Shown: positions 2,890 to 63,500 of the stretch, in pieces
Layout of the letters: each line of letters begins with the position of its first letter
Numbering within the stretch: the stretch's first letter is position 1
Translations under genes and position numbers: made by a program
Assembly: GCF_003918875.1 (NCBI RefSeq)
Contig: NW_025767091.1
Coordinates: forward strand, 1,364,001-1,428,000
Origin: Haliotis rubra
Taxonomy: Eukaryota
Reading direction: 5' to 3'
Length of the DNA stretch: 64,000 bases
Notes under the pieces: model-generated
Database searches by the model: none
What the model was told of the DNA's origin: nothing
The model's input: the letters and a program-made list of their open reading frames with translations, nothing else

Positions 2890-5220
2890 AATCGATATGT
2901 TTTACCCACCAAGCAGCAAGAATTTTCAGATGTTTCAGAGACCAAAGAAACTGTGTTTCAACCCCACAAAGAAGTAAGAATTTTTATACGTTTCAACTCC
3001 CCATTGCAACCAAGAATCTTTAAATGTTTCAACACCACACTGGAACCAGGCAGCAAGAATCTTTACATGTTTTAGCCCTACACTACAACCAAGAATCTCT
3101 CTTTCAACCCTACACTACAACCAAGAATCTATCTTTCAACCCTACACTACAACCAAGAATCTCTTTCAACCCTACACTACAACCAAAAATCTATCTTTCA
3201 ACCCTACACTACAACCAAAAATCTATCTTTCAACCCTAGACTACAACCAAGAATCTCACTTTCAACCCTACACTACACCAAAAATCTATCTTTCAACCCT
3301 ACACTACAACCAAAAATCTATCTTTCAACCCTACACTACAACCAAAAATCTATCTTTCAACCCTACACTACAACCCAAAATCTCTCTTTCAACCCTACAC
3401 TACAACCAAAATCTATCTTTCAACCCTACACTACAACCAAAAATCTATCTTCAACCCTACACCCTACACTACAACCAAAAATCTATCTTTCAACCCTACA
3501 CTCAACCCTACTTTCAACCCTACACTAAGAATCTATCTTTCAACCCTACACTACAACCAAAAAATCTATCTTTCAACCCTACACTACAACCAAAAATCTA
3601 TCTTTCAACCCTACACTACAACCAAAAAATCTCTCTTTCAACCCTACACTACAACCAAGAATCACTCTATCTTTCAACCCTACAACCCTACACTACAACA
3701 AAAAATCTATCTTTCAACCCTACACTACCAAAAATCTATCTTTCAACCCTACACTACAACCAAAAATCTATCTTTCAACCCTACACTGCAACCAACCAAA
3801 AATCTCTTTCTATCTTTCAACCCTACACTACAACCAAAAAATCTCTCTTTCAACCCTACACTACAACCAAAATCTCTCTTTCAACCCTACACTACAAATC
3901 CAAAGATCTCTCTTTCAACCCTACACTACAACCAAAAATCTCTCTTTCAACCCTACACTACAACCAAAATCTATCTTTCAACCCTACACTACAACCAAAA
4001 ATCTATCTTTCAACCCTACACTACAACCAACCCAAAATCTCAACCCTACACTACAACCAAAGATCTCTCTTTCAACCCTACACTACAACCAAAGAGCTCT
4101 GTTTCAACCCTACACTACAACCAAGAATCTCTCTTTCAACCCTACACTACAACCAAAAATCTCTCTTTCAACCCTACACTACAACCAAAATCTCTCTTTC
4201 AACCCTACACTACAACCAAAAATCTATCTTTCAACCCTACACTACAACCAAAAATCTCTCTTTCAACCCTACACTACAACCAAAAATCTATCTTTCAACC
4301 CTACACTACAACCAAAAATCTATCTTTCAACCCTACACTACAACCAAGAATCTCTCTTTCAACCCTACACTACAACCAAGAATCTCTCTTTCAACCCTAC
4401 ACTACAACCAAAAATCTATCTTTCAACCCTACACTACAACCAAAGAGCTCTGTTTCAACCCTACACTACAACCAAGAATCTCTCTTTCAACCCTACACTA
4501 CAACCAAAAATCTATCTTTCAACCCTACACTACAACCAAAAATCTATCTTTCAACCCTACACTACAACCAAAAATCTATCTTTCAACCCTACACTACAAC
4601 CAAAGAGCTCTGTTTCAACCCTACACTACAACCAAGAATCTCTCTTTCAACCCTACACTACAACCAAGAATCTCTCTTTCAACCCTACACTACAACCAAG
4701 AATCTCTCTTTCAACCCCACCATGAAGCAAGAATCTTTACATATTTCAGGCCTACACTACAACCAAGAATCTGTTTCAACCCAACCAGGCAGCAAGAATC
4801 TTTACATGTTTCAGGCCAACATTACAACCAAGAATCTCTGTTTCAATCCCACCAAGCAGCAATAAATCTTTACATGTTTCAGGCCAACTCTACAATCAAG
4901 AATCTCTGTTTCAACCCAACCAGGCAGCAAGAATCTTTACATGTTTCAGGCCAACATTACAACCAAGATAACTCTGTTTCAACCCAACCAGGTAGCAAGA
5001 ATCTTTACATGTTTCAGGCCAACATTACAACCAAGATAACTCTGTTTCAATCCCACCAAGCAGCAAGAATCTCTACATGTTTCAGCCCCACTGCAACCAA
5101 GAATCTCTGTTTCAACCCACAACCAAGCAGCAAGAATTTTCAGATGTTTCTCAGCCCTACATTGCAACCAAGAATCTGTATGTTTCAATCCCACCAAGCA
5201 GCAAGAAACTTTACATGTGT
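2890..5220. repeat. Minisatellite: 32-bp unit in the core (~3070-4720) with diverged ~65-bp dimeric units on the flanks
   Basis: Unit tttcaaccctacactacaaccaaaaatctatc, about 50 copies; the flanks alternate related A/B units. Confidence 0.95.
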
Positions 5221-5582
5221 CAGGGACTGTAACAGTACAACTGTCGTAGATCTATGTTACGTTATGGACTTTTGGTCATCTTAGCATTACGATCACTTTG
5301 TGGAGAAGTGCCATGCTCTACAAATTTCTATTCTCCACACTGTAAATACAACATATCCATAACATAAATTCTGCCACCAAAATTAAATTTTCTTATCATT
5401 AGGAGCCAGTTGTTTTCTTATTTTCACATCTTCAGCAATATCATCTTTGGACAAAACCAACAACAGGAACATGTCTGCTGATCAGTGCACAGGAAGCTGA
5501 ACCTATCTTCAGATCACAGTAGCCTTACAACTAATGTTTATTGTCAGACGGGCCCAGCGGAGCACTGCTTCTGTTTGGTTGT

Positions 5583-9210: not shown

Positions 9211-11400
9211 GTGTAGTTCAAGTAGAGAAAGACATAGGTTATAGTTAACTGTAGTTCAACTACAGAAAGACATAGGTTATAGTTAACTGTAGTTCAACTA
9301 CAGAAAGACATAGGTTATAGCTAACTGTAGTTCAACTAGAGAAAGACATAGGTTATAGCTAACTGTAGTTCAACTAGAGAAAGACATAGGTTATAGTTAA
9401 CTGTAGTTCAAGTAGAGAAAGACATAGGTTATAGTTAACTGTAGTTCAACTAGAGAAAGACATAGGTTATAGTTAACTGTAGTTCAACTAGAGAAAGACA
9501 TAGGTTATAGTTAACTGTAGTTCAACTACAGAAAGACATAGGTTATAGTTAACTGTAGTTCAAGTAGAGAAAGACATAGGTTATAGCTAACTGTAGTTCA
9601 ACTAGAGAAAGACATAGGTTATAGTTAACTGTAGTTCAACTAGAGAAAGACATAGGTTATAGCTAACTGTAGTTCAACTAGAGAAAGACATAGGTTATAG
9701 CTAACTGTAGTTCAACTAGAGAAAGACATAGGTTATAGCTAACTGTAGTTCAACTAGAGAAAGACATAGGTTATAGTTAACTGTAGTTCAAGTAGAGAAA
9801 GACATAGGTTATAGTTAACTGTAGTTCAAGTAGAGAAAGACATAGGTTATAGTTAACTGTAGTTCAACTAGAGAAAGACATAGGTTATAGTTAACTGTAG
9901 TTCAACTACAGAAAGACATAGGTTATAGTTAACTGTAGTTCAACTACAGAAAGACATAGGTTATAGTTAACTGTAGTTCAACTACAGAAAGACATAGGTT
10001 ATAGCTAACTGTAGTTCAACTAGAGAAAGACATAGGTTATAGTTAACTGTAGTTCAAGTAGAGAAAGACATAGGTTATAGTTAACTGTAGTTCAAGTAGA
10101 GAAAGACATAGGTTATAGTTAACTGTAGTTCAACTAGAGAAAGACATAGGTTATAGTTAACTGTAGTTCAACTACAGAAAGACATAGGTTATAGTTAACT
10201 GTAGTTCAAGTAGAGAAAGACATAGGTTATAGCTAACTGTAGTTCAACTAGAGAAAGACATAGGTTATAGCTAACTGTAGTTCAAGTAGAGAAAGACATA
10301 GGTTATAGTTAACTGTAGTTCAAGTAGAGAAAGACATAGGTTATAGTTAACTGTAGTTCAACTACAGAAAGACATAGGTTATAGTTAACTGTAGTTCAAC
10401 TAGAGAAAGACATAGGTTATAGTTAACTGTAGTTCAACTAGAGAAAGACATAGGTTATAGTTAACTGTAGTTCAAGCAGAGAAAGACATAGGTTATAGTT
10501 AACTGTAGTTCAACTAGTGAAAGACATAGGTTATAGTTAACTGTAGTTCAACTAGAGAAAGACATAGGTTATAGTTAACTGTAGTTCAAGTAGAGAAAGA
10601 CATAGGTTATAGTTAACTGTAGTTCAACTAGAGAAAGACATAGGTTATAGTTAACTGTAGTTCAAGTAGAGAAAGACATAGGTTATAGTTAACTGTAGTT
10701 CAACTAGAGAAAGACATAGGTTATAGTTAACTGTAGTTCAAGTAGAGAAAGACATAGGTTATAGTTAACTGTAGTTCAAGTAGAGAAAGACATAGGTTAT
10801 AGTTAACTGTAGTTCAACTAGAGAAAGACATAGGTTATAGTTAACTGTAGTTCAAGTAGAGAAAGACATAGGTTATAGTTAACTGTAGTTCAAGTAGAGA
10901 AAGACATAGGTTATAGTTAACTGTAGTTCAACTAGAGAAAGACATAGGTTATAGTTAACTGTAGTTCAACTAGAGAAATACATAGGTTATAGTTAACTGT
11001 AGTTCAACTAGAGAAAGACATAGGTTATAGTTAACTGTAGTTCAAGTAGAAAAAGGCATAGGTTATAGTTAACTGTAGTTCAAGTAGAGAAAGACATAGG
11101 TTATAGTTAACTGTAGTTCAACTACAGAAAGACATAGGTCATAGTTAACTGTAGTTCAACTAGTGAAAGACATAGGTTATAGTTAACTGTAGTTCAAGGA
11201 GAGAAAGACAGAGGTTATAGTTAACTGTAGTTCAAGTAGAGAAAGACATAGGTTATAGTTAACTGTAGTTCAAGTAGAGAAAGACATAGGTTATAGTTAA
11301 CTGTAGTTCAAGTAGAGAAAGACATAGGTTATAGTTAACTGTAGTTCAACTAGAGAAAGACATAGGTTATAGTTAACTGTAGTTCAACTAGAGAAAGACA
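9211..11400. repeat. Minisatellite, 38-bp unit, ~57 copies
   Basis: Unit ctgtagttcaactagagaaagacataggttatagttaa, highly homogeneous. Confidence 0.97.
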
Positions 11401-13520: not shown

Positions 13521-14359
13521 TTGTGATAGGGTGAGTAAAGATTGTCATGACATCCATCCAAAACATATAATCTAATGATATACATAACCTAGACACTGGT
13601 GTCATAAACATGTTAAATGTATCTGTCATCAGATGTTTAAAGAAAAACTTGCTGGACAATGTTTCATGTTAACATTTCAATCAAAGCCAAATATTTTTAG
13701 ATTAAATTCATCCACAGATTTCATTTTTTTACTGGGAAAAAATAATTTAGGTTTCTTTACAAAAGGAAATAATTGTTCACTGTAAAATCATATTGGTTGG
13801 TTGAAAAAAATAAATAATATAGTATGATGTATAATTTGTATAATAATGTCTCACGTCTCTGAAATTCAATTTTGCCATAATGTCCTGAAAAAAATGCGCT
13901 TAAAAATATTCTCTCTAGATCATCCCCTTGAAAAGAAGTAGTTTGGTTTGAAGAGGTGACCAAAATGGCATCCTTTTCTATTATCAAATCATTTGGCTAT
14001 TCAACGACCACTGAAACAAAATGGTTCAGGAAAAACCAGCTGTACATTCTATTTTCCAGCTCCTACCTACATTTCTGCTGGAGTATAGAATGCTGAAAGT
14101 GTTATCTTACAGGATGAAGAACGTTCCCATGAATTCACAGAATGACACAGGGGTGCCTTCATTACAATCTAAACACATGAGATATACAGAAATAGTCGAC
14201 TACATGCCACAGGTAAGGAGAAGGTGGTGGCTCACATCACAACATTGTTGTTGTGCTCTGATACCCCCTTCCTTGTCTGTAGACAAAGGGGTGTGGATTC
14301 CATTGGCACCACTTATCAAATAGATTCTGCTAACGGCATCTAATTCCGTTCCACCATCA

Positions 14360-16480
14360 ACATTTATCCAATGGATGCTCTAATCACATCCATTTCCTTT
14401 TGGAAAAGTTATCCTGTGTATACTCCAATCACATCCAATTCCAGTGTCAACATTTATCCAATTTATACTTCAATTGCATTCATTTCCATCATCAACATCT
14501 ATCCAAAGGATACTCTAGTCATCCAATTTCCTTCCTTTGTCAACATTTATCTGATGTACCCTCCAGTCACATCTAATTACAATGTTAACAGTTATCCAAT
14601 ATATACTCAAGTCACATCTAATTACAATGTCAACAATTATCCAATAAATACTCCAGTCACATCTAATTACAATGTTAACAGTTATCCAATACATACTCTA
14701 GTCACATCTAATGACAATGTTAACAGTTATCCAATATATACTCCAGTCACATCTAATTACAATGTCAACAGTTATCCAATATATACTCTAGTCACATCTA
14801 ATTACAATGTTAACAGTTATCCAATAAATACTCAAGTCACATCTAATGACAATGTTAACAGTTATCCAATATATACTCTAGTCACATCTAATTACAATGT
14901 TAAGAGTTATCCAAAATATACTCCAGTCACATCTAATTTCAATGTTAAGAGTTATCCAATATATACTCCAGTCACATCTAATTACAATTTACTCCAGTCA
15001 CATCTAATTACAATGTTAACAGTTATCCAATATATACTCTAGTTACATCTAATTACAATGTTAACAGTTATCCAATATATACTCCAGTCACATCTAATTT
15101 CAATGTTAACAGTTATCCAATATATACTCTAGTCACATCTAATTACAATGTCAACAGTTATCCAATATATACTCTAGTCACATCTAATTACAATGTTAAC
15201 AGTTATCCAATAAATACTCAAGTCACATCTAATGACAATGTTAACAGTTATCCAATATATACTCTAGTCACATCTAATTACAATGTCAACAGTTATCCAA
15301 TATATACTCCAGTCACATCTAATTACAATTTACTCCAGTCACATCTAATTACAATGTTAACAGTTATCCAATATATACTCTAGTCACATCTAATTTCAAT
15401 GTTAAGAGTTATCCAATATATACTCAAGTCACATCTAATGACAATGTTAACAGTTATCCAATATATACTCCAGTCACATCTAATTACAATTTACTCCAGT
15501 CACATCTAATTACAATGTTAACAGTTATCCAATATATACTCTAGTCACATCTAATTACAATGTTAACAGTTATCCAATAAATACTCAAGTCACATCTAAT
15601 GACAATGTTAACAGTTATCCAATATATACTCTAGTCACATCTAATTACAATGTTAAGAGTTATCCAATATATACTCCAGTCACATCTAATTTCAATGTTA
15701 AGAGTTATCCAATATATACTCCAGTCACATCTAATTACAATGTTAACAGTTATCCAATATATACTCTAGTTACATCTAATTACAATGTTAACAGTTATCC
15801 AATAAATACTCAAGTCACATCTAATGACAATGTTAACAGTTATCCAATATATACTCTAGTCACATCTAATTACAATGTTAAGAGTTATCCAATATATACT
15901 CCAGTCACATCTAATTACAATGTCAACAGTTATCCAATATATACTCCAGTCACATCTAATTACAATTTACTCCAGTCACATCTAATTACAATGTTAACAG
16001 TTATCCAATATATACTTTAGTCACATCTAATTACAATGTTAACAGTTATCCAATAAATACTCAAGTCACATCTAATGACAATGTTAACAGTTATCCAATA
16101 TATACTCTAGTCACATCTAATTACAATGTTAAGAGTTATCCAATATATACTCAAGTCACATCTAATTTCAATGTTAAGAGTTATCCAATATATACTCCAG
16201 TCACATCTAATTACAATGTTAACAGTTATCCAATATATACTCTAGTCACATCTAATTACAATGTTAACAGTTATCCAATAAATACTCAAGTCACATCTAA
16301 TGACAATGTTAACAGTTATCCAATATATACTCTAGTCACATCTAATTACAATGTCAACAGTTATCCAATATATACTCCAGTCACATCTAATTTCAATGTT
16401 AAGAGTTATCCAATATATAATCCAGTGACGTCTTATTACAATGTCAACAGTTATCCAATATATACTCCAGTCGCATCATT
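14360..16480. repeat. Minisatellite, 45-bp unit with recurring 26-bp short variants
   Basis: Unit gtcacatctaattacaatgttaacagttatccaatatatactcta; explains ORF 14371-15042. Confidence 0.97.
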
Positions 16481-17478
16481 GTCAACAGTTAAATCAATGT
16501 CACATTTTCTTTATTTCAGTACAGATGTGGGCCAACGACCCCTGGTACAACATTGGTTGGTCCATTACACATAAGTATCTGATTCCACGACTTTAACCAG
16601 GTGTTATCCCAGAATTAACCCATGGAGATGTCAAGAGCGGGAAAAGTGACAAAGATTAAACTTCAAGGTACTTAACATAAAAAGTGTGATGATGAGAAGC
16701 TTAACTTTAACTACTAAATGTTCAACTAACTGTGAAAAATGCAATAATTTTGGTAACTCAATACCTGAAAGGCTGATGATATGAAACGAAATATCTTTTT
16801 AACATTCATAATTGCATAAACATATCTCACTTGGGTTTTAATAAGTCAGGATAACATAAGAATGGTTTTACAACTGAAATTTGGAAAACAGCAGCTCACA
16901 GATAGAGGAAGCAGGTGATTTGAATATTCATACGTTGGGAATGCTGTTGAACTTGGCAAGTACCTTGCCATTACAGACTAACTGTCCCTACAGGAGTGTA
17001 TACTCACATTGATATACACTGACATTAAAGACCAACCAACAGGCCAGCATGAATCACTGCAATACACAGCACATGTGAGTACCTTGTATCAAAGGGAAAC
17101 ACCAGACCAACAGGTGCCCTTTCAGGCCTCCATGCAGGGTGGAGCCCTCCAACAGGTGCCCTTGTAGGTACATAGGTCACTGTAGCAGGTAGACTCACTT
17201 CATCCTTGGCTGAAGATATCTATGTCTTTGAGGTTTGTTTGATGATATCAATAATGTTGTGTGAATAGCAGAACAGCTTTCCAAATCTTGGAAATATTAA
17301 TTTTCATAGGATAGTGTTTCATGCTGACATCACTGCAAATAGCTGGAAGATTGCTGATATGGCACTAAGCAATATATATTCATTCATTCATGCTGACAGA
17401 ACACCATACTGAACATGAAGACAAAGTTACCATATCTTCCACCATCCTCATTGGTCAGTGGTTCATTCATGTAAAAAC

Positions 17479-27449: not shown

Positions 27450-28530
27450 ACAGCCATTTCTCAGATAAAGCACAGCCATTTCTCATATAAAGCATATAAT
27501 TCTTCGGATAAAGCACAATCATATCAAAGCCACATCACTAACATTTCTCAGATAAAGCACATTCATATCAAAGCCATATCACAAGCATTTCTCAGATAAA
27601 GCACATTCATATCAAAGCCATATCACAAGCATTTCTCAGATAAAGCACAATCATATCAAAGCCATATCACAAGCATTTCTCAGATAAAGCACATTCATAT
27701 CAAAGCCATATCACAAGCATTTCTCTGATAAAGCACAATCATATCAAAGCCATATCACAAGCATTTCTCTGATAAAGCACATTCATATCAAAGCCATATC
27801 ACAAGCATTTCTCAGATAAAGCACATTCATATCAAAGCCATATCACAAGCATTTCTTGGATAAAGCACATTCATATCGAAGCCATATCACAAGCATTTCT
27901 CTGATAAAGCACAATTATATAAAGCCATATCACAAGCATTTCTCAGATAAAGCACATTCATATCAAAGCCATATCACAAGCATTTCTCAGATAAAGCACA
28001 TTCATATCGAAGCCATATCATAAGCATTTCTCTGATAAAGCACAATTATATCAAAGCCATATCACAAGCATTTCTCAGATAAAGCACATTCATATCAAAG
28101 CCATATCACAAGCATTTCTCAGATAAAGCACATTCATATCGAAGCCATATCACAAGCATTTCTCTGATAAAGCACAATTATATAAAGCCATATCACAAGC
28201 ATTTCTCAGATAAAGCACATTCATATCAAAGCCATATCACAAGCATTTCTCAGATAAAGCACAATCATATCAAAGCCATATCACAAGCATTTCTCAGATA
28301 AAGCACAATTATATCAAAGCCATATCACAAGCATTTCTCAGATAAAGCACATTCATATCAAAGCCATATCACAAACATTTCTCAGATAAAGCACATTCAT
28401 ATCGAAGCCATATCACAAGCATTTCTCTGATAAAGCACAATTATATAAAGCCATATCACAAGCATTTCTCAGATAAAGCACATTCATATCAAAGCCATAT
28501 CACAAGCATTTCTTGGATAAAGCATATCAA
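27450..28530. repeat. Minisatellite, 44-bp unit, ~23 copies
   Basis: Unit aaagccatatcacaagcatttctcagataaagcacattcatatc. Confidence 0.97.
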
Positions 28531-29480: not shown

Positions 29481-31861
29481 CCTTCCTAATCACCAAATTG
29501 GATAGTTGGAACTTGTTTATCTGGACTTTATTATAGTGAAAGACAGTTTCTAATGGACGCCATTTCCTGATAGCCCAGGTACATGGGTTTCCTAATTAAC
29601 AAGGAACATAGCAGCATTGGACATCTTGAGATATATTTGTCATTAACAAAAACATATCTGTATTCTTAATATTCACTTATAATCATCAAAACTGTAAATG
29701 ATGTTGGTTTTAGATATATGTTACAGTAACTAATAAACTATGTTAATATGTAGAAAATTCAAAGTTTCCAAAGGAAAGGCACTGAATATCAAAGAAGCAA
29801 AGTTTCAAAAACATTTTTCAAAGAGAATATGTTTCTGGCATGTTGAAATGTTATACCTGCCGCCACCCCATGACCCCACAAACAACCCTTCTCCCCCTCT
29901 AGGTCTGTAGGTGTAACCAATACCTACCTCCAACATCCCTCCCAACAGGTGCCCTCTAACCTCACCCCACGCAGGTCATGCCAAGGTCAAGCATTGGCCA
30001 AAGTCAGATATATACACCAAGTGTGAGATAATTATGTTTATACCACACAAAAGTTGAGAGACCATTCCAAATGTAGGTATACTTCTCGATAACACCAGAG
30101 AGGAAAGGGCATGTAGGATCTGCCTTTAATTAGCCTGTAGGGTCAAACTTTTCCCTGATCCTTCATTGTAGGGGGTAATTATTCTCCACAACATTTCAAG
30201 TGAGACCAGAAGTTTATGACATAAGGGTCAAGTAATAAACCTTATGTATTCCTGAGGGAGAATCACAGGCAGTTTTCCAATCAAGTTCATTACCTGCATT
30301 TCAAAATTCATCCAAAACCAATGATTAATTTGTTTGCGCATCACAACTTCTATTTTCCTTTGATGAAAATAGTATTTGTCATGAAATATGTACCAAACTA
30401 AACCATCATTTTTGTAGGACTGTACGGTATTACCATCAAGACTAACAAACAGCATGTCTATCAAATTTGCAACTTTTGTATGTTAGAACTTCCACTATCA
30501 AGACGTGTTAGAATATGTCTCTCAAATACAAAGACTTTTTAAATCAGAACTGCCAAATTCAATATGTTTAATAGCACACCTACCAAATTCAGGACTTTTT
30601 TTTGGTCACAACTACCAATTTCAAGGCCTTTTCAAGTCTTTACAACAAGCACGTTCCCATCACCCAGAACTGCAATAGATCCTTGTGTGGCATTACTTCA
30701 ATCAGTGGAAATCAAAGTAAACAACAGCCACATGTTCTTTCAGCAATAAGCCACAAATATGCAGCTAAACTAAACCATCACAGCCACATCTTACATGTCT
30801 CTATCAAGGAAAGCTTACGTCTAAAAATATACCTTCAAGGAAGCCAAAGATAGCTCCAAATTTATTTTTGCAAGTAATTTCTGAATCAAGCTCTCATTAC
30901 ACAATGAGAAAGAATCTAAAATAGGGACAAGAAGCGCTGCCTTGCCAGCCCTGCATTGAAAGATATACCTTTAGCACTTCCTGGAGATATATATAGACAG
31001 ATAATGTCTTAGTGTATGCCTTGGCAAAATACCTGGCTCTGTTAAAGGCATATGCTATCTTTCTGCAACTGACATTAACATTTTATGCATTTTATATTGT
31101 GTTGGCACATATTCTAGTGGTTCATCTAAAGCAACTGTGTTAATCTTATTGCAAACAGGTGGTCCTTTAAGTCTGAGAAATGGCTTTCATATTTTCAAAA
31201 ATAGAGTGATGATGACGATAAAGGAATTAAGAGAAGTGTCTAACTGTCATCATGGCAAAGCTTATCTCGAGATTGTGTACTATATTCAACCTAACAACAT
31301 ATATATTGAGTTTTAAGTCACTGTAATCATTGCTTTCCACATAACACCACAACTGCTTATTACCTATGACAATTTAAAGGGGGTCTACACTTGAGGCATT
31401 TGACAGTCCTTCATATGTATTAGAAGGGGGCTGACTGATTGTATTTCGTCAAGTTAGATATCAATGATCAGTTTACCCTGAAATAGCACACAGACCAACG
31501 AGCCATATCTTTTTCTGTCGTTTATTTCCTAATCCTTGAAAACCAAGAAGATGTAGCAAGTTTTTTTATAAACATGTCTCTCGGCTGATAAGTTTTGAAT
31601 TTGAAGCACCTCTAGTAGTAATAGAGGGGGTGGGGTTTACTACCGCAGATGCAGCTTAGAGGCTTATTTGTGGGAATTAAGCCTCCCAGCCCCCCTTAAA
31701 AAATATCGAGAACCATCCTTCGATGTGCAAGTTCAAATAAAAAAATAGTAAAAAGCCCTCTGTGGACACAACCCACGGACGGAGAAATTCGTGTTTTGAC
31801 CAGAGACCCGCCTGGTCCCATTGATATGATGGCAGCGATGGTGAGTCACGTTTATCATGGT

Positions 31862-32536
31862 TTATATTAGAGAAGAAATTTTAATTGTTTTGGATAATTT
31901 TTCGGCCGTGCATTTCAAACCCATCAGATGTATGTAATCTTGTAGGAAAATTTTCGTGAGCGATATCGTGTTTTCCACGGTGAGGTTGACTCCCTGCTGA
32001 CTGGTGAAGGCATCCACGCCCACCCGTACGTAAACGGAGCAAACGTGGTATTGGTGTTGTTGGGTCCACTGGAGTTTGATACCTTTGACGATTTTGACGT
32101 TACCAACCCGTGGTTCGCCGAGGTAGACTTGGATGATCAGCGTGGATTGCGCCGGCAGATTTTGCAGGATGTCGACCACGCTGTCGAATTCCGACACTAA
32201 CTGCAACGTCGCGTTTGACGTCTCGGATTTACTCGATAGGATGTGAGCTATTGGTTGCGGCAGCGTGCTGACGATGACGCTGCGTCTTTGCGTCGGGACA
32301 TAAGCCACGATCAGCGTTCCGTTGTTCACGACTTTCGTGAGGTGGTCTTTGTTTTCCGTGAGAGAGGGGAGAGTCTAGCGCGATGTAGATATTCCAGTTG
32401 ATTCGAGAGGGCACGAACACCAATCGGTTGTCGTTGGTCCACGTCGGTCAACGTTGTCCAGGTCGAAGAGTTTGCCGCCAAAGGCTGGAACCATCACCCA
32501 TGTGTTATTGGCGTTGCGAACGAGATTGTACTGCAT
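31862..32536 (-). pseudogene. Frameshifted uncharacterised Polinton ORF (beta-rich, possibly structural)
   Basis: Segments MQYNLVRNANNTWVMVPAFGGKLFDL.., VFVPSRINWNIYIALDSP.. and NNGTLIVAYVPTQRRSVIV... lie in different frames inside the TIRs. Confidence 0.6.
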
Positions 32537-32689
32537 GTTTTTAAGAGAACTCCGGTCTCGACATCGTCTAAATCTCCTAGGTTACCACGACACCGGGCTC
32601 ATCGAAGCCGCGCGTCTCCCCGAGGTCGGAGATCGCTAGGTTGGCGCATTTTCTCAGTCGCATGGTTGTTCCCGGACCCGAAGCTTCAG

Positions 32690-33336
32690 TCATCGTTGTT
32701 TGATGTGCAGCATCACGCTCAGGTATCCTATATGAACGGGTTTATATTTTATATCTAAAACTGATAGTTTCAATTTCGTGATGTTGCCTCGCGTTAATTT
32801 CTTGTACAGCAAGGTCGAAATCGATTCGGTTCTGCCGTCGTACTTTTCCGTTTTCACCGGCACGGCTCTCAGCAGTGTGGAAGGTTGTCTGTCATGCTCA
32901 GCTGATCGAGGTGAATGCACAGTTCGTGGTAGGGGACGAGGCTCGGCAATTTCGAGCCCGTGACAGTGTCTCGAGGTGCTATCTCGTAAGTTGCCAACCC
33001 GTGTGTTCTCGCCAAGGGTCGACCCAGTTTGATGGGTTGGTCTCCGTTCGTCAACTTGAGCGTGACATCCGACTCGTTGAGTTTAAGACTGGCTCCGACG
33101 GGTTTAAAAATTTCGTCGTCCAGTATACACACATGTTATAATAACCGTCGGTCAACAGGTGGCAGCTATTATCGATAAAAAGCTTGTTGTTGTTTCTCTT
33201 AGCGCTGATATTCGACCATCACGGGTAGTAGGCGAGATCGCAGAGCACAACTTCCGAGTTCCCCCGACGTGTTATCGATCGCTTGCAGCAGCGGAATGGG
33301 TTTGCCGCTCGTGATTCCCGGGAGCGTGACGTACAT
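32690..33336 (-). pseudogene. Polinton minor capsid (penton)-like gene remnant
   Basis: MYVTLPGITSGKPIPLLQAIDNTSGEL / EVVLCDLAYYP*WSNISAKRNNNKLF..TDGYYN / ..LCIHLDQL.. / STLLRAVPV..YKKL..ITKLKLSVLD..VMLHIK; ~215 codons with the NIS-NN, GYY and LRxVP pattern recalled for Polinton pentons. Confidence 0.6.
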
Positions 33337-33374
33337 ATTGAAAAAATATATACACGTAAATATAATAATTCAAT
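33337..33374. promoter_or_regulatory. Putative 38-bp bidirectional promoter between divergent ATGs
   Basis: catattgaa ... ttcaatatg dyad around an AT-rich spacer with TATA-like motifs. Confidence 0.45.
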
Positions 33375-34190
33375 ATGGCTACACCCCAGGACCAGCCTGG
33401 AGTGATTTATCCTAAAAGCGATAATTTAAGTGCTACCGATCTCACGCATATGGAAATCATGGTGGATGCGAAGGAGGGTTCCCACTTTCGAGCTCGATTT
33501 ATCAATGTATTTGAAAAGTATAGGCTTTCAGTCACGAATGTCAAGGCAGTCCACGCATGGTTTAACAACCCGATGCAATTCTGGCAGAATCAATTCAATG
33601 ACGCCATGTGGTGTGCAACGACCGGGTGTGGCATGACCTTGAACGACACTCGTCGTGAACCGCTGAATCAGTTCGTGTTCTATTTCCATGTGTACTACCA
33701 AATCAGATGCATTCTGAAAGAAATCAACACCCCGTTTCTGCAGGACAAGGTGTGGAACGCGACAAACAATCGGTACGATCGGCAGGCTTACGAACAGATT
33801 TGCAACGATTTCTAAATCGATCCGAACACGGATTGGCGTTTACCAGGCATGAATCACGGTTTGGGTATTCCTATCATTCACAACATGCCCCTCATAGAAG
33901 CCAGCAAGAAGTTGGTTTTTTTTTAAAGAATGGGGTGGTAAAATGTATGCGAATGCTTACGTCACGAGTAACGAGTGGAGAGATGATCCATGGCTTTTGA
34001 CGACAGCAAGGATTATCGCGTTTGGAGGTTTGAGCAGGGACCCGCGGACGATTGGAAACAATTTATCCTGGTTCACTCGCGCAAGGACCGTACGGTTGAA
34101 CGATTCGATTCGAACGTATGTGTGGGCGCAAATGCGTTCCTGCATTGTGGGTCAAGGGACAGCCTACAACGTGCAGAACCAGTACGTGTC
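33375..34190 (+). pseudogene. Uncharacterised Polinton-associated gene (stop and frameshifts)
   Basis: WQNQFNDAMWCATTGCG, FHVYYQIRCILKE, YEQICNDF*IDPNTDWRLPG, DDWKQFIL, RLNDSIRTYVWA; coding-like sequence continues across an in-frame stop. Confidence 0.7.
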
Positions 34191-34670
34191 CAGGTGAGAC
34201 GAGGCGTGGCCGGAGCTCACCGAAGCCAAGCCATCATCGAAAGATTCAACAGGACTTTAGCCGAGCATTTGTTCGGACATCAGTATGCTCGAGAGATGGT
34301 CAACCCAGAAAAACGATCGATGGAATGGGTCATACGCTTACCACGAGTGGTGTCGGCGATCAACAACGAATTCACTCGACTCCTCGATAAAAGACCCGTC
34401 GAAGCCATTCGAATGAAATCCGTGACAATCGAATCGGCTGCGCCAACGCGTCTTGGCACGGCCAAGAGAAAAACTACCGGACCGGGTCATCATGAGGTAT
34501 CTGCACCAGCCCGGGTGAATTCAAAGGAGGGGATAAACGTCGTGCCACAGACCCCGTATGGTCCATGAAAACGTACCACGTCGACCGAGTGGACATCAAA
34601 GACGACGAACCATATCTGTATTACTTGCATGACGGACTGGGTAGGGGATTCATCCGAGAATCATACCCTC
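34190..34670 (+). pseudogene. Retroviral-like (RVE) integrase, C-terminal half
   Basis: HRSQAIIERFNRTLAEHLF (catalytic-E helix), WVIRLPRVVSAINN..TRLL..P, then frameshifted RYLHQPGE..GGDKRRATDPVWS..YLYYLHDG..RGFIRE. Confidence 0.88.
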
Positions 34671-36004
34671 ACGACACGGTATTACCCCCAAAATAAAAAA
34701 ACAAAAAAATGCTCTGTCTGGGATTCTAATGCTAAAACTCTAGGTCCGAAGTCCGGCATGTTCCCTTCACGCCGGCAGTCTCACTCTGTCAGGGACGGTG
34801 CATTCAAGCTATATATAGCTCATACGCTTTGTGAGCTTATGTAACCCGATTCTAAATTAGCCGATTGTGGCTTCTAAACATGTTTTCACCCTCCAAACGT
34901 GCACGAGGCGAGCGAGACTGGTTCTGCACTACTGTAGCCAGTATAGACGGAGCCCAGCTCAAGATAAAATAATGGATTGTGTCCTCTACAATTTTTTCAG
35001 CATTCGTCGTCTAATGTATCGTATTCAGCGTTCTTCAAACTACCTACGGGCATCGTGTTTGTATTTTATGAGACATGGATTCGAGGTGAAAAAGCCACCA
35101 AACGTGCACAAAGTATTGAAGCGGAAGTGGAATGACGGGTTTCAGACATCCTTTGCGCTACTATAGACGGAGCCCGGTTTATGAGGATGATGCAATCTCA
35201 GGATAGACCCGTTAAACCGAGCACTCGGCTATCAGGTCCTCTGTGGCTCAGTCGAACGACTGCTGGGTACAATCAAGGTACAGAGTTACGCATCTCTGTC
35301 ACCGAGGTTCGAAGCCTACTGTTCAGAAAAACAACAACACGGAGCTCTCAGGGAGAGCGAGTTCGACCACAACCCCACGGGAGAAATACCAGTGCACCAC
35401 AAACATCATCAGACCAGGGACCAGGCGGGTCTCTGGTCAAAACACCAATTTCTCCCTCCGTGGGTTGTGGCCACAGAGGGCTTTTGCTATTTTTTTATTT
35501 GAACTTGCACATCGAAGAATGGTTCTAATATTTTTTTAAGGGGGCTGGGAGGCTTAATTCCCATAAATAAGCCTCGTTTCTACAAAAAACATAAATAACA
35601 GACTGGCGTCCTAAGTGATCTGTCCGCTTATCTAGACTTGCCTCTTTAAAGGATAGAATTACTGTACATCCATGGGCTTAGCATTCAGTACAGCCTTGGA
35701 GCAAGGCTACTGTTGGAGTTTCACTAGGAGATGAAAGGATTCTGGTTCCCTACGCATGGTATGACAGCCAGTTAAAAGTGATCAGTTGGTCAGGCTCGTT
35801 GATATGATTGGCTGATTTGGTGTCACTGTGCCTTTTTGACATGAGCCCTGTTTCATCAACCAGTCAGAGTGATCTGAACTCCCATACTTCAACGTAGGCT
35901 AAAAATACAACCATCATAGTTCTCATATCGTTTACTGCAATGGGACCCAAATAAACATCAAGCATCAACGCTGAAGGACAACAAATTTCTATTTTTCGAC
36001 TAAA

Positions 36005-36692
36005 CAAATATTGCTGACAAAGCATATTTACAGGCTTCCTTGATATACCTGAAATATTGCTGACAAAGCATATTTACAGGCTTTCATGATATACCTGAAA
36101 TATTCTTGACAAAGCATATTTACAGGCTTTCATTATATACCTGAAAAGGTCTTGACAAAGCATATTTACAGGCTTTCATGATATAGCTGAAATATTGCTG
36201 ACAAAGCATATCTACAGGCTTTCATGATATAGCTGAAATATTGCTGACAAAGCATATTTACAGACTTTCATGATATACCTGAAATATTGCTGACTAAGCA
36301 TATTTACAGGCTTTCATGATATACCTGAAAAAGTCTTGACAAAGCATATTTACAGGCTTTCATGATAGCTGAAATATTGCTGAAAAAGCATATTTACAGG
36401 CTTTCATGATATACCAGAAATATTGCTGACAAAGTATATTTACAGGCTTTCATGATATACCTGAAATATTGCTGACAAAGCATATTTACAGGCTTTCATG
36501 ATAGACCTGAAATATTGCTGACAAAGCATATTCACAGGCTTTCATTATATACCTGAAATATTGCTAACAAAGCATATTTACAGGCTTTCATGACATACCT
36601 GAAATATTCTTTCCAAAGCATATTTACAGGCTTCCATGATATAGTTGAAATATTCTTGCCAAAGCATATTCACAGGCTTTCATGATATACCT
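36005..36692. repeat. Minisatellite, 46-bp unit, ~15 copies
   Basis: Unit gaaatattgctgacaaagcatatttacaggctttcatgatatacct. Confidence 0.95.
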
Positions 36693-37544
36693 GTTTGAAG
36701 TATAACTGTGGAAATGCAGTGATTTAAGGGTATTTAGGTCAGTAATGCCGATATGTAAATATGCAATAATGTGTAGTAAGTTTTGGTGCTCTTGCAGTAA
36801 GACACTGGTTTGTTTGCTCAAGGCTTTATTCCTAACATATCTGTCTGGACATAACAACCAGTATGGACTGTGGTATAAAACAATTCCTTACCACACACTT
36901 ATTCAACCAGCCAATCAAATCAGTGCATTGTGGAGGAACCAAACCAGATTCCAATGCTCCATGTGTTGTAACCTGACAGGTGAATTTTCCATCACAAAAA
37001 TACAACAGTGATTAATAATGTCAGCTGTTTCTCATCTAAACTATTCATAGCTGGCAAGAACCATTGACTATCTTTATGATTGGAAAAGTATCTGGCAAAT
37101 GTTGCCTTAAAATCATAAAAACGGTGAAAGGTGCATTACATGAATTACATCTATTATACAAACTGTCTACATAGAGTGCAACAAAGTTTTTGCCTAAACT
37201 GTCAATGACCCTTACACTACAGGCCAGGAAGATAAACATGGTTACCATTAAAAACAAGCACTTGTCATATATGTTTCCTTGTCACAGTGTCCAAACAAAT
37301 GGAAGTGATGGATTGAAGCACAAACATGAAGCACCCCTCAATAACAACTGTACAGGTCTGGTTCGGTGGGGTAGCCCAGTGGTTCCAGCGTTGGCTCATC
37401 ACTCCTAAGGCCTCGGTTTGATTCTCCACATTGGTACAACGTGAAGCCCATTTCTGGTGTCCCCCACTGTGATATTGCTAGAATATAGCTAAAAGTGGCG
37501 TAAAACACAACTCAATCACTGTACAGGTCTCCATTTTACTACAG

Positions 37545-57285: not shown

Positions 57286-58479
57286 TAAGTCAATATAATA
57301 CCTCTCCAGATCTTCCCCAGTCCATCAGTTGAAGAGATAATAACATCAACAGGAAGCATCTTAAAACACTTCAAGCAGTTTTCAAAAACTAATTCAACCA
57401 CCAGCTTCCTTCTTTTGACCTCTAAATCTGATAAACTAATGCTTCATTTGCAGCATGTGTCATCCCAACCTGTTTTTCCCATTACTTTCTGGAGCTAACT
57501 AGCATGATTTATTGCTGAAAAGATTATCCGATACAGGTTTCCTTACAACTTATGATATATCCATCCACATAAACCATATGTGACTGCACAGATACAATGA
57601 TAACAATCACAAGCTTGGCTGCATATAGTATCTGAGTACCTGGTACTCAGGTGGGTATTTCCATTTTCATTCATTAGTCAGAAAAAAAAATAACACACCC
57701 ACACACACACACATGCATGCATGCACACACGCACAAATGCATGCACACTGAGACAGAACATTGTATCAAACATATAATTTTCGAAATCAGTATGCATGAT
57801 ACGTTTTCACTACTAAAATTTAATGTCTATTGGGGTCAAGTCATCTATGGTGTTGCAATTTGCTACCCAGAGTTGCATCCCCTTGGTGTGTCAGGAAAAT
57901 GTGACCTTTGAATCCCACATTATCCTGATTCAACTGGTATGTTTGACTGGTAGCTTTACCACTGTAAGTGTAATAATCGCACTTTCACCCGTACTATTAT
58001 ACTCTCCTGTAAATTGAAAAATAATGAATAATTTTTTCTCTGATGATACATCTATGTATCTAAATGGGATCCCTATCTTTCGACTCTAGAAAAGCGTTAG
58101 CAAAACCTTACCTCAAACCCATCCATTCCTCATGAAATGACGTTAGTGCCAAATCAGGTTTTGCACATGCAGTCAATCACGTGGATTTCGTGATCGACTT
58201 TCTTCATTCAACTTTTGCACTTGGCCTCAACAAAGCAAATGCGAGGACACAAATATCCCCCATTCTGCCGGGACTTGTGTTGATGTTACACACAAGACGT
58301 CAAATGGCTAGCTTGTCCCGTTGTCATGTTGCGAGGCGATGGAGTTATTGACGTCGCTAAAGAGCAATGATCCGCCATAACATGACTTGAGTTCTGTCTA
58401 GAAGAAACGATTTAAGATCTAGCAGGGGAAGAGGTTTAGTTTTCTCAAAGCATACAGGAAATTACCGAGGCCTCACAGA

Positions 58480-59377
58480 CCATTCGCGGGTTAATGATCA
58501 CATTCTCGAAACAACGCCAATATTGCTGATTTCATCAACATAAATCTGATTGCCTCCAATCCGATGGACCCAGAGAGACTTGAATCGAGCCACACCGATG
58601 AATCCAGGTTTACCCTCAGATTCGCGGACGGCAGGCATAGAGTCTGGAGAAGGCGTAACGTCTGTGAACGGTATGCCCAATGTTGTGTACTGGAAGTCGA
58701 CAGATTCGGGGCGGAAGTTGCATGGTGTGGGATGCTTGCTGTGGCAACTACCGCCCCGACTTCTGGTCATCCGTGGAAACCTCACAGCTGCTGCTTACCG
58801 CGACCAGGTGCTCACCCCTGAACTCGCTCTTTCATGGCTGCTCATGGCCCAGGTCTACAGTTCCAGCATGATAATGCCGCGATACCGCGATGTTGACACG
58901 AAATTTCCTTCAAAACGCTGGAATCAACGATGGACTGGCTATCGGGTCCCCTGACCTTAATCCAATAGAGCACGCTTGGGATGCACTTGGGAAAAGGCTT
59001 CGTGGTCTTAGGAATCAACCTCAGAATTTGCAGGAACTTGGCTGCCTTGCAAGAGCAATGGCGCAGAATCCCCAACCACGATGTTCACAAGCATCAGGCA
59101 GTCAATGAGGAGACGGTGTTTGGCAGTGGTGAATGCCCGCCATACCGCATTTTGAACTGAGAAATTTCGCATGTTTATTCTTGTGACTTGACATTCTGTA
59201 TACCCATGTTTTGGAACGGCCGTGTAGCCTAATGGAACTGATTATGGCACTGTCAGTGTATCGAGTACATCACACAGATCTCAGCAATGAAATAATAACA
59301 ATTTAACCATCTTACCATCTCTTGTTCTTTTATAGTGCCCTGGAGAAAGAATGTGAAGTTTCTTTTTTGACTCAGTA
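58480..59377 (+). mobile_element. Tc1/mariner transposon remnant (DD34E-type)
   Basis: TDESRF, RVWRR, GNLTAAAYRDQVL, FQHDNA and SPDLNPIEHAW in shifted frames; right end ...ttttttgactcag-TA. Confidence 0.92.
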
Positions 59378-60545
59378 TAGTTAAAGTATGAGGACGCTTT
59401 GTAAGATGCCAAATATAATACTTTCTAAGGATAATTACGATTAATTTAAGGCAGAAAACAAACGACGGTGTCGCTGACCTAAATTAAAGGTCACATGCAA
59501 CCAAAAATCAAACAACAGGCAGGCAGACAGGGCTTTGAGTTTTGCATGCTGTTCTATATCATTGATGTGTCTGCCCCCTAGAAAGTGACTCGGTAAGAAG
59601 AGCGTGTTAAGAAATTATATAAACAGTTAACGCTTCCAGAAAAAAAAAAAAATGATAACAGTTTGATGATGGTTTACGTTCGGATTAAATATCTTCTCTG
59701 AATTATTTTAATTATATCTGTCATTAACGCAAACCATATGGGGCAATATGAACGTCGCATTTCTACTACCAACGTAAGTTTAGATCAGTACATCCAGATG
59801 AAGCTGAGTAGTCAAGCAACATTCCAGGAAGCATTGTGGGAATGTAAACATTGCGAACAATACCATGTCGCTGAAAACTTGTGAGTCGAATTGACACATT
59901 TTAATCGTCGTAAAACATAAACGCAATGTTTCCACCAGTGATGTTAGCTGCGTGAAGCAACTGCAAACCAAGAAACGGAATGCAACGGAATAGTTTACTG
60001 TAGGAGGCCGTAAGAGGCGATGACAACTGACATGCATTGTGACGTCGCTTACATTGTGACGTAATGTAAAATGGTTCGATTATGAGGGGGCACACTAGAA
60101 TGGCGCAGTGACGGGATAACGTCATTCAATTGTTACGTCATCAAAAAACTAAACCTTTATTGTCTGATAATGTTTGTTTTTGAGTGTTCTAACCGCTAGG
60201 CATCTTAAAAAACACTATACCATTGCTTGCTGGTTTCACCAGAGAGGTAAATGTCTCAGACATTCATCACTTCAGGCTCTTCTCGGAGTCCTCCATGTCA
60301 GTCTGACACCCTACGATATAACTGACATGATTCTAAAAGTGGTTGTTAAATCACACTAACTCACACTACTATAACCTGTCCTGTGCTGGTGAGCTATGAC
60401 ATTAAGAAACCATAGTGAAGACTGACTTATTTTCAAGCAACACAATGAAATTCACAAAAGTCACAAACATGTCACTTATTATAGAAAAAGTCACAGAGTT
60501 GTCTCTATCAAAGTGACAAGCGAGACTCAAGAGGAGGAGGGTCAG

Positions 60546-62267: not shown

Positions 62268-62648
62268 AATCAGACTGAAACGTGTGAAATTGAGTTGAGG
62301 TGAAATGAAATAGGTTCAATACTGGATGAAAGATTATTTAAACATAAACATTTTAATAATGGAAATAAAGCTATGACTTGAAACTGCAAAGCCTTTGAAA
62401 TGACTTACATTTCAGGAGAATATCATAGTAAGTATGGCTTTACACCACTTTTATCAATAACTTTGTGGGGGGCTACACATTGACTTAACACATTGTAAAC
62501 TTATCTTAACTGCAAAACTTACACAGAAATGGCCATAACAACATAATCATCCTATTTTTCTACATTTAAAAACACAATGTTAATGGTACTGTTGCTTTGA
62601 CATCTGCACCTATAAACTGACTTACATTGGTTGTCTTTAGGACCCTGC

Positions 62649-63500
62649 TCATACTCCCTTTCTAATCAATGATCTAGACTGAAGCACATCAGCAAGCAAT
62701 ACACAGCTTTAAACATTTTATTGTCTATAATATGACCCTGTCTATAATGTGATCCCTTGCAGAAACCTTCAGAGTTACCTCATACACCCTTTCTAATCAA
62801 TGATCTGGAATGAAACACATCAGCCAGCAATACACAGCTTTAAACATTTTATTGTCTATAATATGACCCTGTCTATAATGTGATCCCCTGCAGAAACCTT
62901 CAGTGTTACCTCATACACCCTTTCTAATCAATGATCTAGACTGAAGCACATAGCAAGCAATACACAGCTTTAAACAGATTTACATTTATTGTCTGCAATA
63001 TGACCCTGTCTATAATGTGATCCCTTGCAGAAACCTTCAGTGTTACCTCATACACCCTTTCTAATCAATGATCTAGACTGAAACACATCAGCAAGCAATA
63101 CACAGCTTTAAACATTTTATTGTCTGCAATATGACCCTGTCTATAATGTGATCCCTTGCAGAAACCTTCAGTGTTACCTCATACACCCTTTCTAATCAAT
63201 GATCTAGACTGAAGCACATAGCAAGCAATACACAGCTTTAAACAGATTTACATTTATTGTCTGCAATATGACCCTGTCTATAATGTGATCCCTTGCAGAA
63301 ACCTTCAGTGTTACCTCATACACCCTTTCTAATCAATGATCTAGACTGAAGCACATAGCAAGCAATACACAGCTTTAAACAGATTTACATTTATTGTCTG
63401 CAATATGACCCTGTCTATAATGTGATCCCCTGCAGAAACCTTCAGTGTTACCTCATACACCCTTTCTAATCAATGATCTGGAATGAAACACAGCTTTAAA
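62649..63500. repeat. Tandem repeat, 131/137-bp units, ~6.3 copies
   Basis: Unit starts at 62649, 62780, 62911, 63048, 63179, 63316 and 63453. Confidence 0.95.

What the first reader, a model, noticed from the sequence alone, without database searches (positions are those of the whole stretch)
31614..35575. Endogenous Polinton/adintovirus-like element reduced to 4 kb
Seen: AGTAGT terminus, ~160-bp TIRs, a sharp rise in GC/CpG, an integrase remnant, a penton-like remnant and two to three unknown ORFs; no pPolB, packaging ATPase, protease or major capsid is visible. Known: full Polintons are ~15-25 kb with those genes and AG-rich termini. Inference: a deletion derivative of a virus-like lineage with an unusual accessory gene set; if multi-copy, a non-autonomous satellite mobilised in trans. 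It is the most system-like object in the window.
Basis: partly seen in the sequence, partly recalled or inferred. Interest (0 to 1): 0.7.

Follow-up and report, generated by a model that had tools for sequence, protein, structure and literature searches.

The report
Decayed fragment of a Polinton element
This 4-kb stretch is a broken, deleted leftover of a 14-kb virus-like jumping element (a Polinton/Maverick) that has many copies in this animal genome; its deletion breakpoints are found nowhere else in the genome, so it is most likely an ordinary dead copy and not a new satellite element.

Summary
The element is real: AGTAGT left end at 31614, GC 48%, CpG o/e 1.17 against 0.25-0.41 outside. 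It is a Polinton/Maverick. Copies with the same ends in this genome reach 14 kb and carry pPolB, packaging ATPase, a probable major capsid, penton and RVE integrase. The penton is confirmed by fold (mavirus penton, E 2.5e-7). The satellite idea fails. Neither deletion junction recurs in the genome, the right end is lost, every gene is broken, the integrase lacks its N-terminal half, and dN/dS to sister copies is 0.4-0.7. The left junction also occurs under a second species label, so the insertion is likely old. Residual interest lies in the parent lineage: no maturation protease was found, it is high-copy, and it carries a conserved membrane-anchored Cys/His protein with no fold match. The scan's notes hold multi-copy mini-Mavericks in other genomes (unchecked); this is not one.

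The parts
31609..31613 (.). Putative left half of a 5-bp target-site duplication (CCTCT); no partner on the right
   Evidence: Sequence; family TSD length; no right-end-plus-TSD match in the window apart from a GTA microsatellite. Inferred.
31614..31831 (+). Left TIR, truncated to 218 bp of about 0.95 kb; starts AGTAGT
31820..31843 (.). Deletion junction 1: about 2 kb missing (rest of left TIR and two small genes, ORF-X and ORF103)
   Evidence: not spanned by any other of 40 scored hits
31862..32693 (-). ORF-A remnant, unknown ~310-aa protein next to the penton; internal loss, frameshift and stop. Function untested; a vertex fibre or spike is a guess from position
   Evidence: 55-69% identity to an open sister copy; only 1 database homologue; no Pfam or NCBIfam family
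32699..33336 (-). Minor capsid protein (penton, single jelly-roll) pseudogene; four pieces in changing frames, one stop
   Evidence: model of an open sister copy pLDDT 95 matches mavirus and Sputnik pentons, E 2.5e-7 and 3.3e-5, Z 10-12
33375..34190 (+). ORF-C remnant: 5' two-thirds of a conserved ~420-aa Polinton protein with near-invariant Cys/His residues and a C-terminal hydrophobic helix (that end is deleted here); stops and frameshifts
   Evidence: model pLDDT 85, no fold match
34188..34190 (.). Deletion junction 2: about 8.7 kb missing (ORF-C end, ORF-D, MCP, ATPase, small ORFs, pPolB, integrase N-half); short microhomology at the joint
   Evidence: unique in the genome
34188..34684 (+). 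RVE integrase remnant, residues ~153-318 of 339; most of the rve core (residues 67-161) is missing; frameshifted
34690..35575 (-). Right TIR, about 885 bp, lacking the terminal 45 bp
35576..35710 (.). Unrelated high-copy ~135-bp repeat abutting the cut right end (not part of the element)
   Evidence: 2459 first-look candidates, 40 scored, 86-96% identity in the listed rows

Best explanation
This is a broken, deleted copy of a ~14-kb Polinton/Maverick family and is most likely a dead fossil that can no longer move. Shown: it keeps one intact end, fragments of penton, integrase and two unknown genes, and two large deletions whose junctions occur only here. Inferred from the known family mechanism: the parent copied itself by protein-primed synthesis from its inverted ends, could build a jelly-roll capsid, and was inserted by its RVE integrase with a 5-bp duplication. 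Inferred: after insertion this copy lost its right end and decayed without selection; the two internal deletions probably also arose in the chromosome by microhomology joining, but their timing is not shown.
For: Same-TIR copies hit DNA_pol_B_2 (E 6e-7), Pox_A32 (E 1e-3, under cut-off), rve (weak) and Endonuclease_7. One 14-kb same-TIR copy holds the whole gene order between two AGTAGT ends with a 5-bp TSD. Penton fold. Junctions: 0 of 39 other scored hits span junction 2, 0 of 39 span junction 1; a 19-base junction pattern gave self plus 1 hit against 3 control hits. The other fetched copies have differing gene losses. Decay: stops and frame changes in all four genes, dN/dS 0.39-0.74 to same-TIR copies against 0.13-0.28 to the sister family, arms 6.5% apart, nearest copies 4-10% away. 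The left host-element junction is bridged by contigs of one sample under a second species label (records 9 and 17).
Against: Only 40 of 103-862 first-look candidates were scored per DNA search, and the assembly may be incomplete. The order of deletion and insertion was not resolved. dN/dS is below 1, partly because pairwise values include the time the lineage was active; ORF-C at 0.39 is the lowest. The major capsid assignment rests on weak Pfam Capsid_N hits (E about 0.005, under cut-off), size and position; it was not folded. No integrase or polymerase tree was built.
Confidence: 0.88

Rival explanations
1. The internal deletions arose during replication outside the chromosome, and the shortened genome was integrated once by a helper's integrase (a defective-genome route), then died. 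This differs from the best reading only in the order of events.
For: Nine other two-ended copies of 0.85-14.9 kb keep both end regions and most lack internal genes. Junction 2 has microhomology.
Against: Those copies were found by a TIR search, which selects for kept ends. This copy has lost three quarters of the left arm and carries many small deletions that look like slow chromosomal decay. The loss of the right end must postdate insertion.
Confidence: 0.2
2. It is a member of an amplified non-autonomous family (satellite) mobilised in trans.
For: The TIR is multi-copy and relatives with long open frames exist as possible helpers. The scan's unchecked notes describe such minis in other genomes.
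Against: Junctions unique. Right terminus missing. No kept open gene. The smallest two-ended copy, 0.85 kb, is also single.
Confidence: 0.03
3. It is a Ginger-like or LTR-derived integrase element that captured virus-like genes.
For: The integrase is of the shared RVE/DDE class.
Against: AGTAGT ends, ~0.95-kb TIRs, and the same integrase DNA lies directly behind pPolB in same-TIR copies.
Confidence: 0.01

Closest known systems
Polintons / Mavericks (class Polintoviricetes; adintoviruses are treated as synonymous in 10.64898/2026.06.19.733378)
   Same: Parent family has pPolB, RVE integrase, A32-like ATPase, penton and a probable MCP; 14-15 kb; TIR and TSD lengths within the published 100-1500 bp and 5-8 bp (10.1101/2023.08.22.554363); (AGT)2 ends as in vertebrate Mavericks (PMC8097293). 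Degraded copies are the norm: that paper found 134 intact elements against more than 2,000 lacking TIRs.
   Different: TSD 5 bp rather than the 6 bp of vertebrate Mavericks; no adenain-type protease found (published: identifiable in 74% of Polintons, PMC4028283); gene order differs from the vertebrate two-module layout; this copy keeps 4 kb only.
pPolB2 / Beta-type Polintons
   Same: Polymerase scores only weakly to PF03175 and carries an Endonuclease_7 (HNH-like) insert, as described for some pPolB2 (10.1101/2023.08.22.554363).
   Different: Group not tested by a tree; that paper reports the HNH insert only in nematode and oomycete pPolB2; GasderminX and Cupiennin homology not tested.
Non-autonomous mini-Mavericks (scan notes from other genomes, unchecked)
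   Same: Short, Polinton ends, lacks polymerase.
   Different: Those are described as multi-copy or with open genes; this copy is single, one-ended and fully broken.

Membership tests
Polinton/Maverick (family level) | [quoted passage not shown] | tested here: met
   DNA_pol_B_2 E 6e-7 in a same-TIR copy; deleted from the window copy
Polinton/Maverick (family level) | RVE integrase | tested here: met
   rve E 1e-8 in an open sister copy; window remnant 63% identical to it
Polinton/Maverick (family level) | [quoted passage not shown] | tested here: met
   Fold matches mavirus, Sputnik, PBCV-1 and adenovirus pentons; remnant in window
Polinton/Maverick (family level) | A32-like packaging ATPase | tested here: met
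   Pox_A32 E 1.8e-8 in a sister copy; 94-99% of it covered in two same-TIR copies; deleted from the window copy
Polinton/Maverick (family level) | [quoted passage not shown] | tested here: inconclusive
   430-480-aa frames between ORF-D and ATPase; Capsid_N E about 0.005, under cut-off; no PDB sequence match; not folded
Polinton/Maverick (family level) | Adenovirus-like maturation protease | tested here: inconclusive
   No peptidase family in the frames of 95 aa or more of two full-length elements and no free slot in the gene map; the genome search with PF00770 had no positive control
Polinton/Maverick (family level) | Long TIRs with AG- or AGT-repeat ends | tested here: met
   0.93-1.0 kb arms, AGTAGT ends; window copy has the left end only
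Polinton/Maverick (family level) | 5-8 bp target-site duplication | tested here: met
   Perfect 5 bp in 4 of 6 same-TIR copies with both ends readable, 4/5 in one, none in one, 6 bp in none; 3 more two-ended copies unreadable. 5 bp in 2 of 2 sister elements. Not testable for the window copy.
Polinton/Maverick (family level) | Length 13-25 kb | tested here: met
   14.0 kb same-TIR copy and 14.8 kb sister element; window copy 3.96 kb
Non-autonomous (satellite) derivative family | Several copies share the same internal junctions | tested here: not met
Non-autonomous (satellite) derivative family | Both termini intact | tested here: not met
   Right TIR lacks 45 terminal bases
Beta adintovirus (PMC8502044) | Beta-class OTU-PolB, Adenain, GasderminX and Cupiennin genes | not tested
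   Reference sequences were not in the held part of the supplement; an OTU-like Cys/His pattern in the PolB N-terminus is recognised from recall only
Ginger / LTR integrase elements | Integrase without pPolB and capsid genes; placement in an integrase tree | tested here: not met
   Gene context tested; tree not built, no named references at hand

The most novel reading that the evidence does not exclude
The parent is a protease-less, 5-bp-TSD polintovirus lineage that expanded to hundreds or thousands of copies in one animal genome, in which the conserved membrane-anchored Cys/His protein ORF-C has a new fold and takes over virion maturation or membrane entry; its many differently shortened copies, this one included, are defective genomes integrated by helpers.
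Probability: 0.12. Interest if true: 0.5.

Novelty: new member of a known kind. Interest (0 to 1): 0.18.

Why it matters
As a locus it matters little: it is one of many dead Polinton copies. It points to a genome with a large Polinton load (2320 and 3781 first-look candidates for ORF-C and the capsid gene, which are not copy numbers) where two families of different age can be compared, and to ORF-C, a widespread Polinton protein with a confident model and no fold match. If ORF-C replaced the missing protease or mediated membrane entry, it would bear on the open question of how animal Polintons form and release virions.

Tried and rejected
Pfam on 12 window frames: no family in any. ORF-C: no match by Foldseek in PDB or BFVD, best VIA Z 3.6, none by profile to PDB sequences; the model is 424 residues and domains were not folded alone, so this does not show a new fold. 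ORF-C in phage records: none; in viral contigs: 1 weak locus, not followed. The protein Atlas returned nothing for two queries, so ORF-A has no structural evidence. PF00770 search of the genome: nothing, without a positive control. Missing right end with TSD: only microsatellite hits. No RNA holder listed. Laying contigs at 98% showed no piece across either internal junction among the 32 of 4223 pieces printed, so the timing of the deletions is open. Rfam: 0 matches in the window. A paper search for Polinton + non-autonomous + deletion derivative + terminal inverted repeats gave 3 papers, none on this case (listing only); I do not claim that non-autonomous Polintons are absent from print. Rejected: 6-bp TSD, 160-bp TIR, a third unknown gene, and a functional ORF-C/integrase fusion (the ORF-C part is out of frame and cut off from its start by stops). 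The host species was not determined.
Full report
1. Observation. The stretch 31614-35575 begins with AGTAGT and has GC 0.484 and CpG o/e 1.17, against 0.37/0.25 to the left and 0.37/0.41 to the right. Its ends share an inverted repeat of 169 aligned bases with 6.5% mismatches; the match begins 45 bases inside the left end, so the right arm lacks its tip. None of 12 window frames hit Pfam, so identification had to come from relatives.

2. The family in the genome. The left end matches 40 scored of 291 candidate places in a 1.38-Gb genome, at 80-94% for other loci. I fetched 38 stretches. Nine other copies have both end regions and measure about 0.85, 4.3, 5.6, 6.0, 10.3, 11.3, 12.6, 14.0 and 14.9 kb. 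In two of them the arms align over 0.93-1.0 kb, so the true TIR is about 0.95 kb. The window keeps 218 bp of the left arm and about 885 bp of the right. Four of 6 copies with both ends readable have a perfect 5-bp duplication, one has 4 of 5, one has none, and none has 6 bp. A sister family with different TIRs, about 70% identical in DNA, also has 5-bp duplications in 2 of 2 elements read. One 14.8-kb sister element sits inside a copy of the window's family, so the sister family was active later at that site.

3. Gene content of the parent. The order is TIR, ORF-X, ORF103, ORF-A, penton (minus strand), ORF-C, ORF-D (minus), probable MCP, ATPase, three to four small ORFs, pPolB, integrase, TIR. 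It is seen in a 14-kb same-TIR copy and in sister elements. Pfam support: DNA_pol_B_2 E 6e-7 in a same-TIR copy and Endonuclease_7 inside pPolB; Pox_A32 E 1.8e-8 and rve E 1e-8 in sister copies; Capsid_N only E about 0.005 for the MCP. The penton of an open sister copy, folded on 81 homologues (pLDDT 95), matches mavirus penton (E 2.5e-7) and Sputnik (E 3.3e-5), with adenovirus pentons next, and PBCV-1, mavirus and Sputnik chains at Z 10-12. No protease family appeared in the 73 frames of 95 aa or more from two full-length elements (70, 3), and the gene map has no free slot, but the genome-wide protease search had no positive control.

4. What the window copy kept. ORF-A 31889-32693, penton 32699-33336, ORF-C residues 18-287 of 424 at 33396-34206, and integrase residues 153-318 of 339 at 34188-34684. 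All four have stops or frame changes. The integrase lacks most of the rve core, which spans residues 67-161 in the open copy. Two large deletions explain the size: about 2 kb at 31820-31843 and about 8.7 kb at 34188-34190, the second at a short microhomology. A different ~135-bp repeat with 2459 candidates abuts the cut right end.

5. Satellite test. No other scored hit spans junction 1 (0 of 39; 40 of 103 candidates scored) or junction 2 (0 of 39; 40 of 862 scored). A junction pattern found itself and one more place, against three for the reversed control. The 0.85-kb two-ended copy is single too (0 of 51 other rows). Other copies lost different genes. dN/dS to same-TIR copies is 0.39-0.74 over 6-8 copies per segment, against 0.13-0.28 to the sister family: selection while active, little since. 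Substitution distances to the nearest copies are 4-10%. Contigs from two runs of one sample under a second species label run from the unique left flank 38 and 52 bases into the element, with 7 and 9 substitutions in about 1050 bases. The insertion therefore likely predates the split of these two labels; this rests on one sample, and the label could be a hybrid or an error. Whether that allele has the same deletions was not resolved.

6. Mechanism. Shown: a Polinton copy with one end, broken genes and private deletions. From established knowledge of the family (PMC4028283 and PMC11161782, passages read): protein-primed replication by pPolB, capsid from MCP and penton filled by the A32-like ATPase, insertion by the RVE integrase. 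Inferred: insertion with a 5-bp duplication, then decay in the chromosome. The rival order, deletion first and a single helper-driven insertion afterwards, is not excluded (about 0.2).

7. The unknown genes. ORF-C has 868 homologues at E<=0.001 among 7994 scored candidates, none of the 120 listed with an informative name. C84, C89, H109 and C147 are kept in 94-100% of 120 aligned sequences, and 117 of 120 end in a hydrophobic helix. The model is confident (pLDDT 85) and has no fold match. My best guess is a zinc-binding, membrane-anchored virion or assembly protein; a protease role is possible and untested. ORF-A has one database homologue, and its C-terminal part resembles ORF103 (27%, E 6e-6). 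Either may equal a named PW, PZ or Adintoc protein; the supplement of PMC8502044 was cut before its sequence file, so this could not be checked.

8. Comparison with print. 10.1101/2023.08.22.554363 (passages): 13-25 kb, TIR 100-1500 bp, TSD 5-8 bp, HNH insert in some pPolB2. PMC8097293 (passages): (AGT)2 ends, 6-bp TSD, most vertebrate elements degraded. PMC4028283 (passages): protease identifiable in 74% of Polintons. [quoted passage not shown] PMC8502044 (one of six text parts and passages). PMC11131425 (passages) added nothing used. The scan's notes hold no look-alike by sequence and, by words, several mini-Mavericks in other genomes; they are unchecked and only show what a real satellite would look like.

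9. Verdict. An ordinary dead copy of an unnamed Polinton family. Interest 0.18; what remains of interest is the parent lineage and ORF-C.

Noticed in passing
G000 whole genome: Very large Polinton load: 2320 first-look candidates for ORF-C and 3781 for the capsid gene (not copy numbers); many capsid frames are open over 430-480 aa at 85-97% identity to one another's query.
   Followed up: partly
L041:1555 to L026:7468: A 14.8-kb sister-family Polinton with a 5-bp duplication is nested inside ORF-A of a copy of the window's family.
   Followed up: partly
L048:5081-6166, L038:8074-9231, L026:2393-4399: pPolB carries an Endonuclease_7 (HNH-like) insert and an N-terminal Rho_N hit. 10.1101/2023.08.22.554363 reports the HNH insert only in nematode and oomycete pPolB2; homology to that insert was not tested.
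   Followed up: partly
L018:273-1131: A 0.85-kb gene-less element made of two joined TIR parts with both AGTAGT ends; single copy by junction search.
   Followed up: yes
L037:5964-6080 and L039:6282-6400: Sister-family left ends show an ACTACT motif about 110 bases after the AGTAGT start, in L037 as a short inverted copy of the terminus.
   Followed up: no
L038:6477-6914: A 145-aa frame just upstream of pPolB looks by eye like a second copy of a domain in the pPolB N-terminus (possible terminal-protein paralogue; impression only).
   Followed up: no
window 35576-35710: High-copy ~135-bp repeat, in tandem at some loci, with sharp ends near 35620 and 35710 in laid contigs.
   Followed up: partly
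window 58001-60000: Second CpG-rich patch (o/e about 0.86); the frame 58550-58954 reads like a decayed Tc1/mariner transposase piece (recalled motif, not searched).
   Followed up: no
window 3076-5224, 9212-11400, 14349-16477, 27507-28524, 36006-36693, 62648-63492: Large minisatellite arrays with periods 32/64, 38, 45, 44, 46 and 137 bp; they account for all long open frames before position 17000.
   Followed up: no
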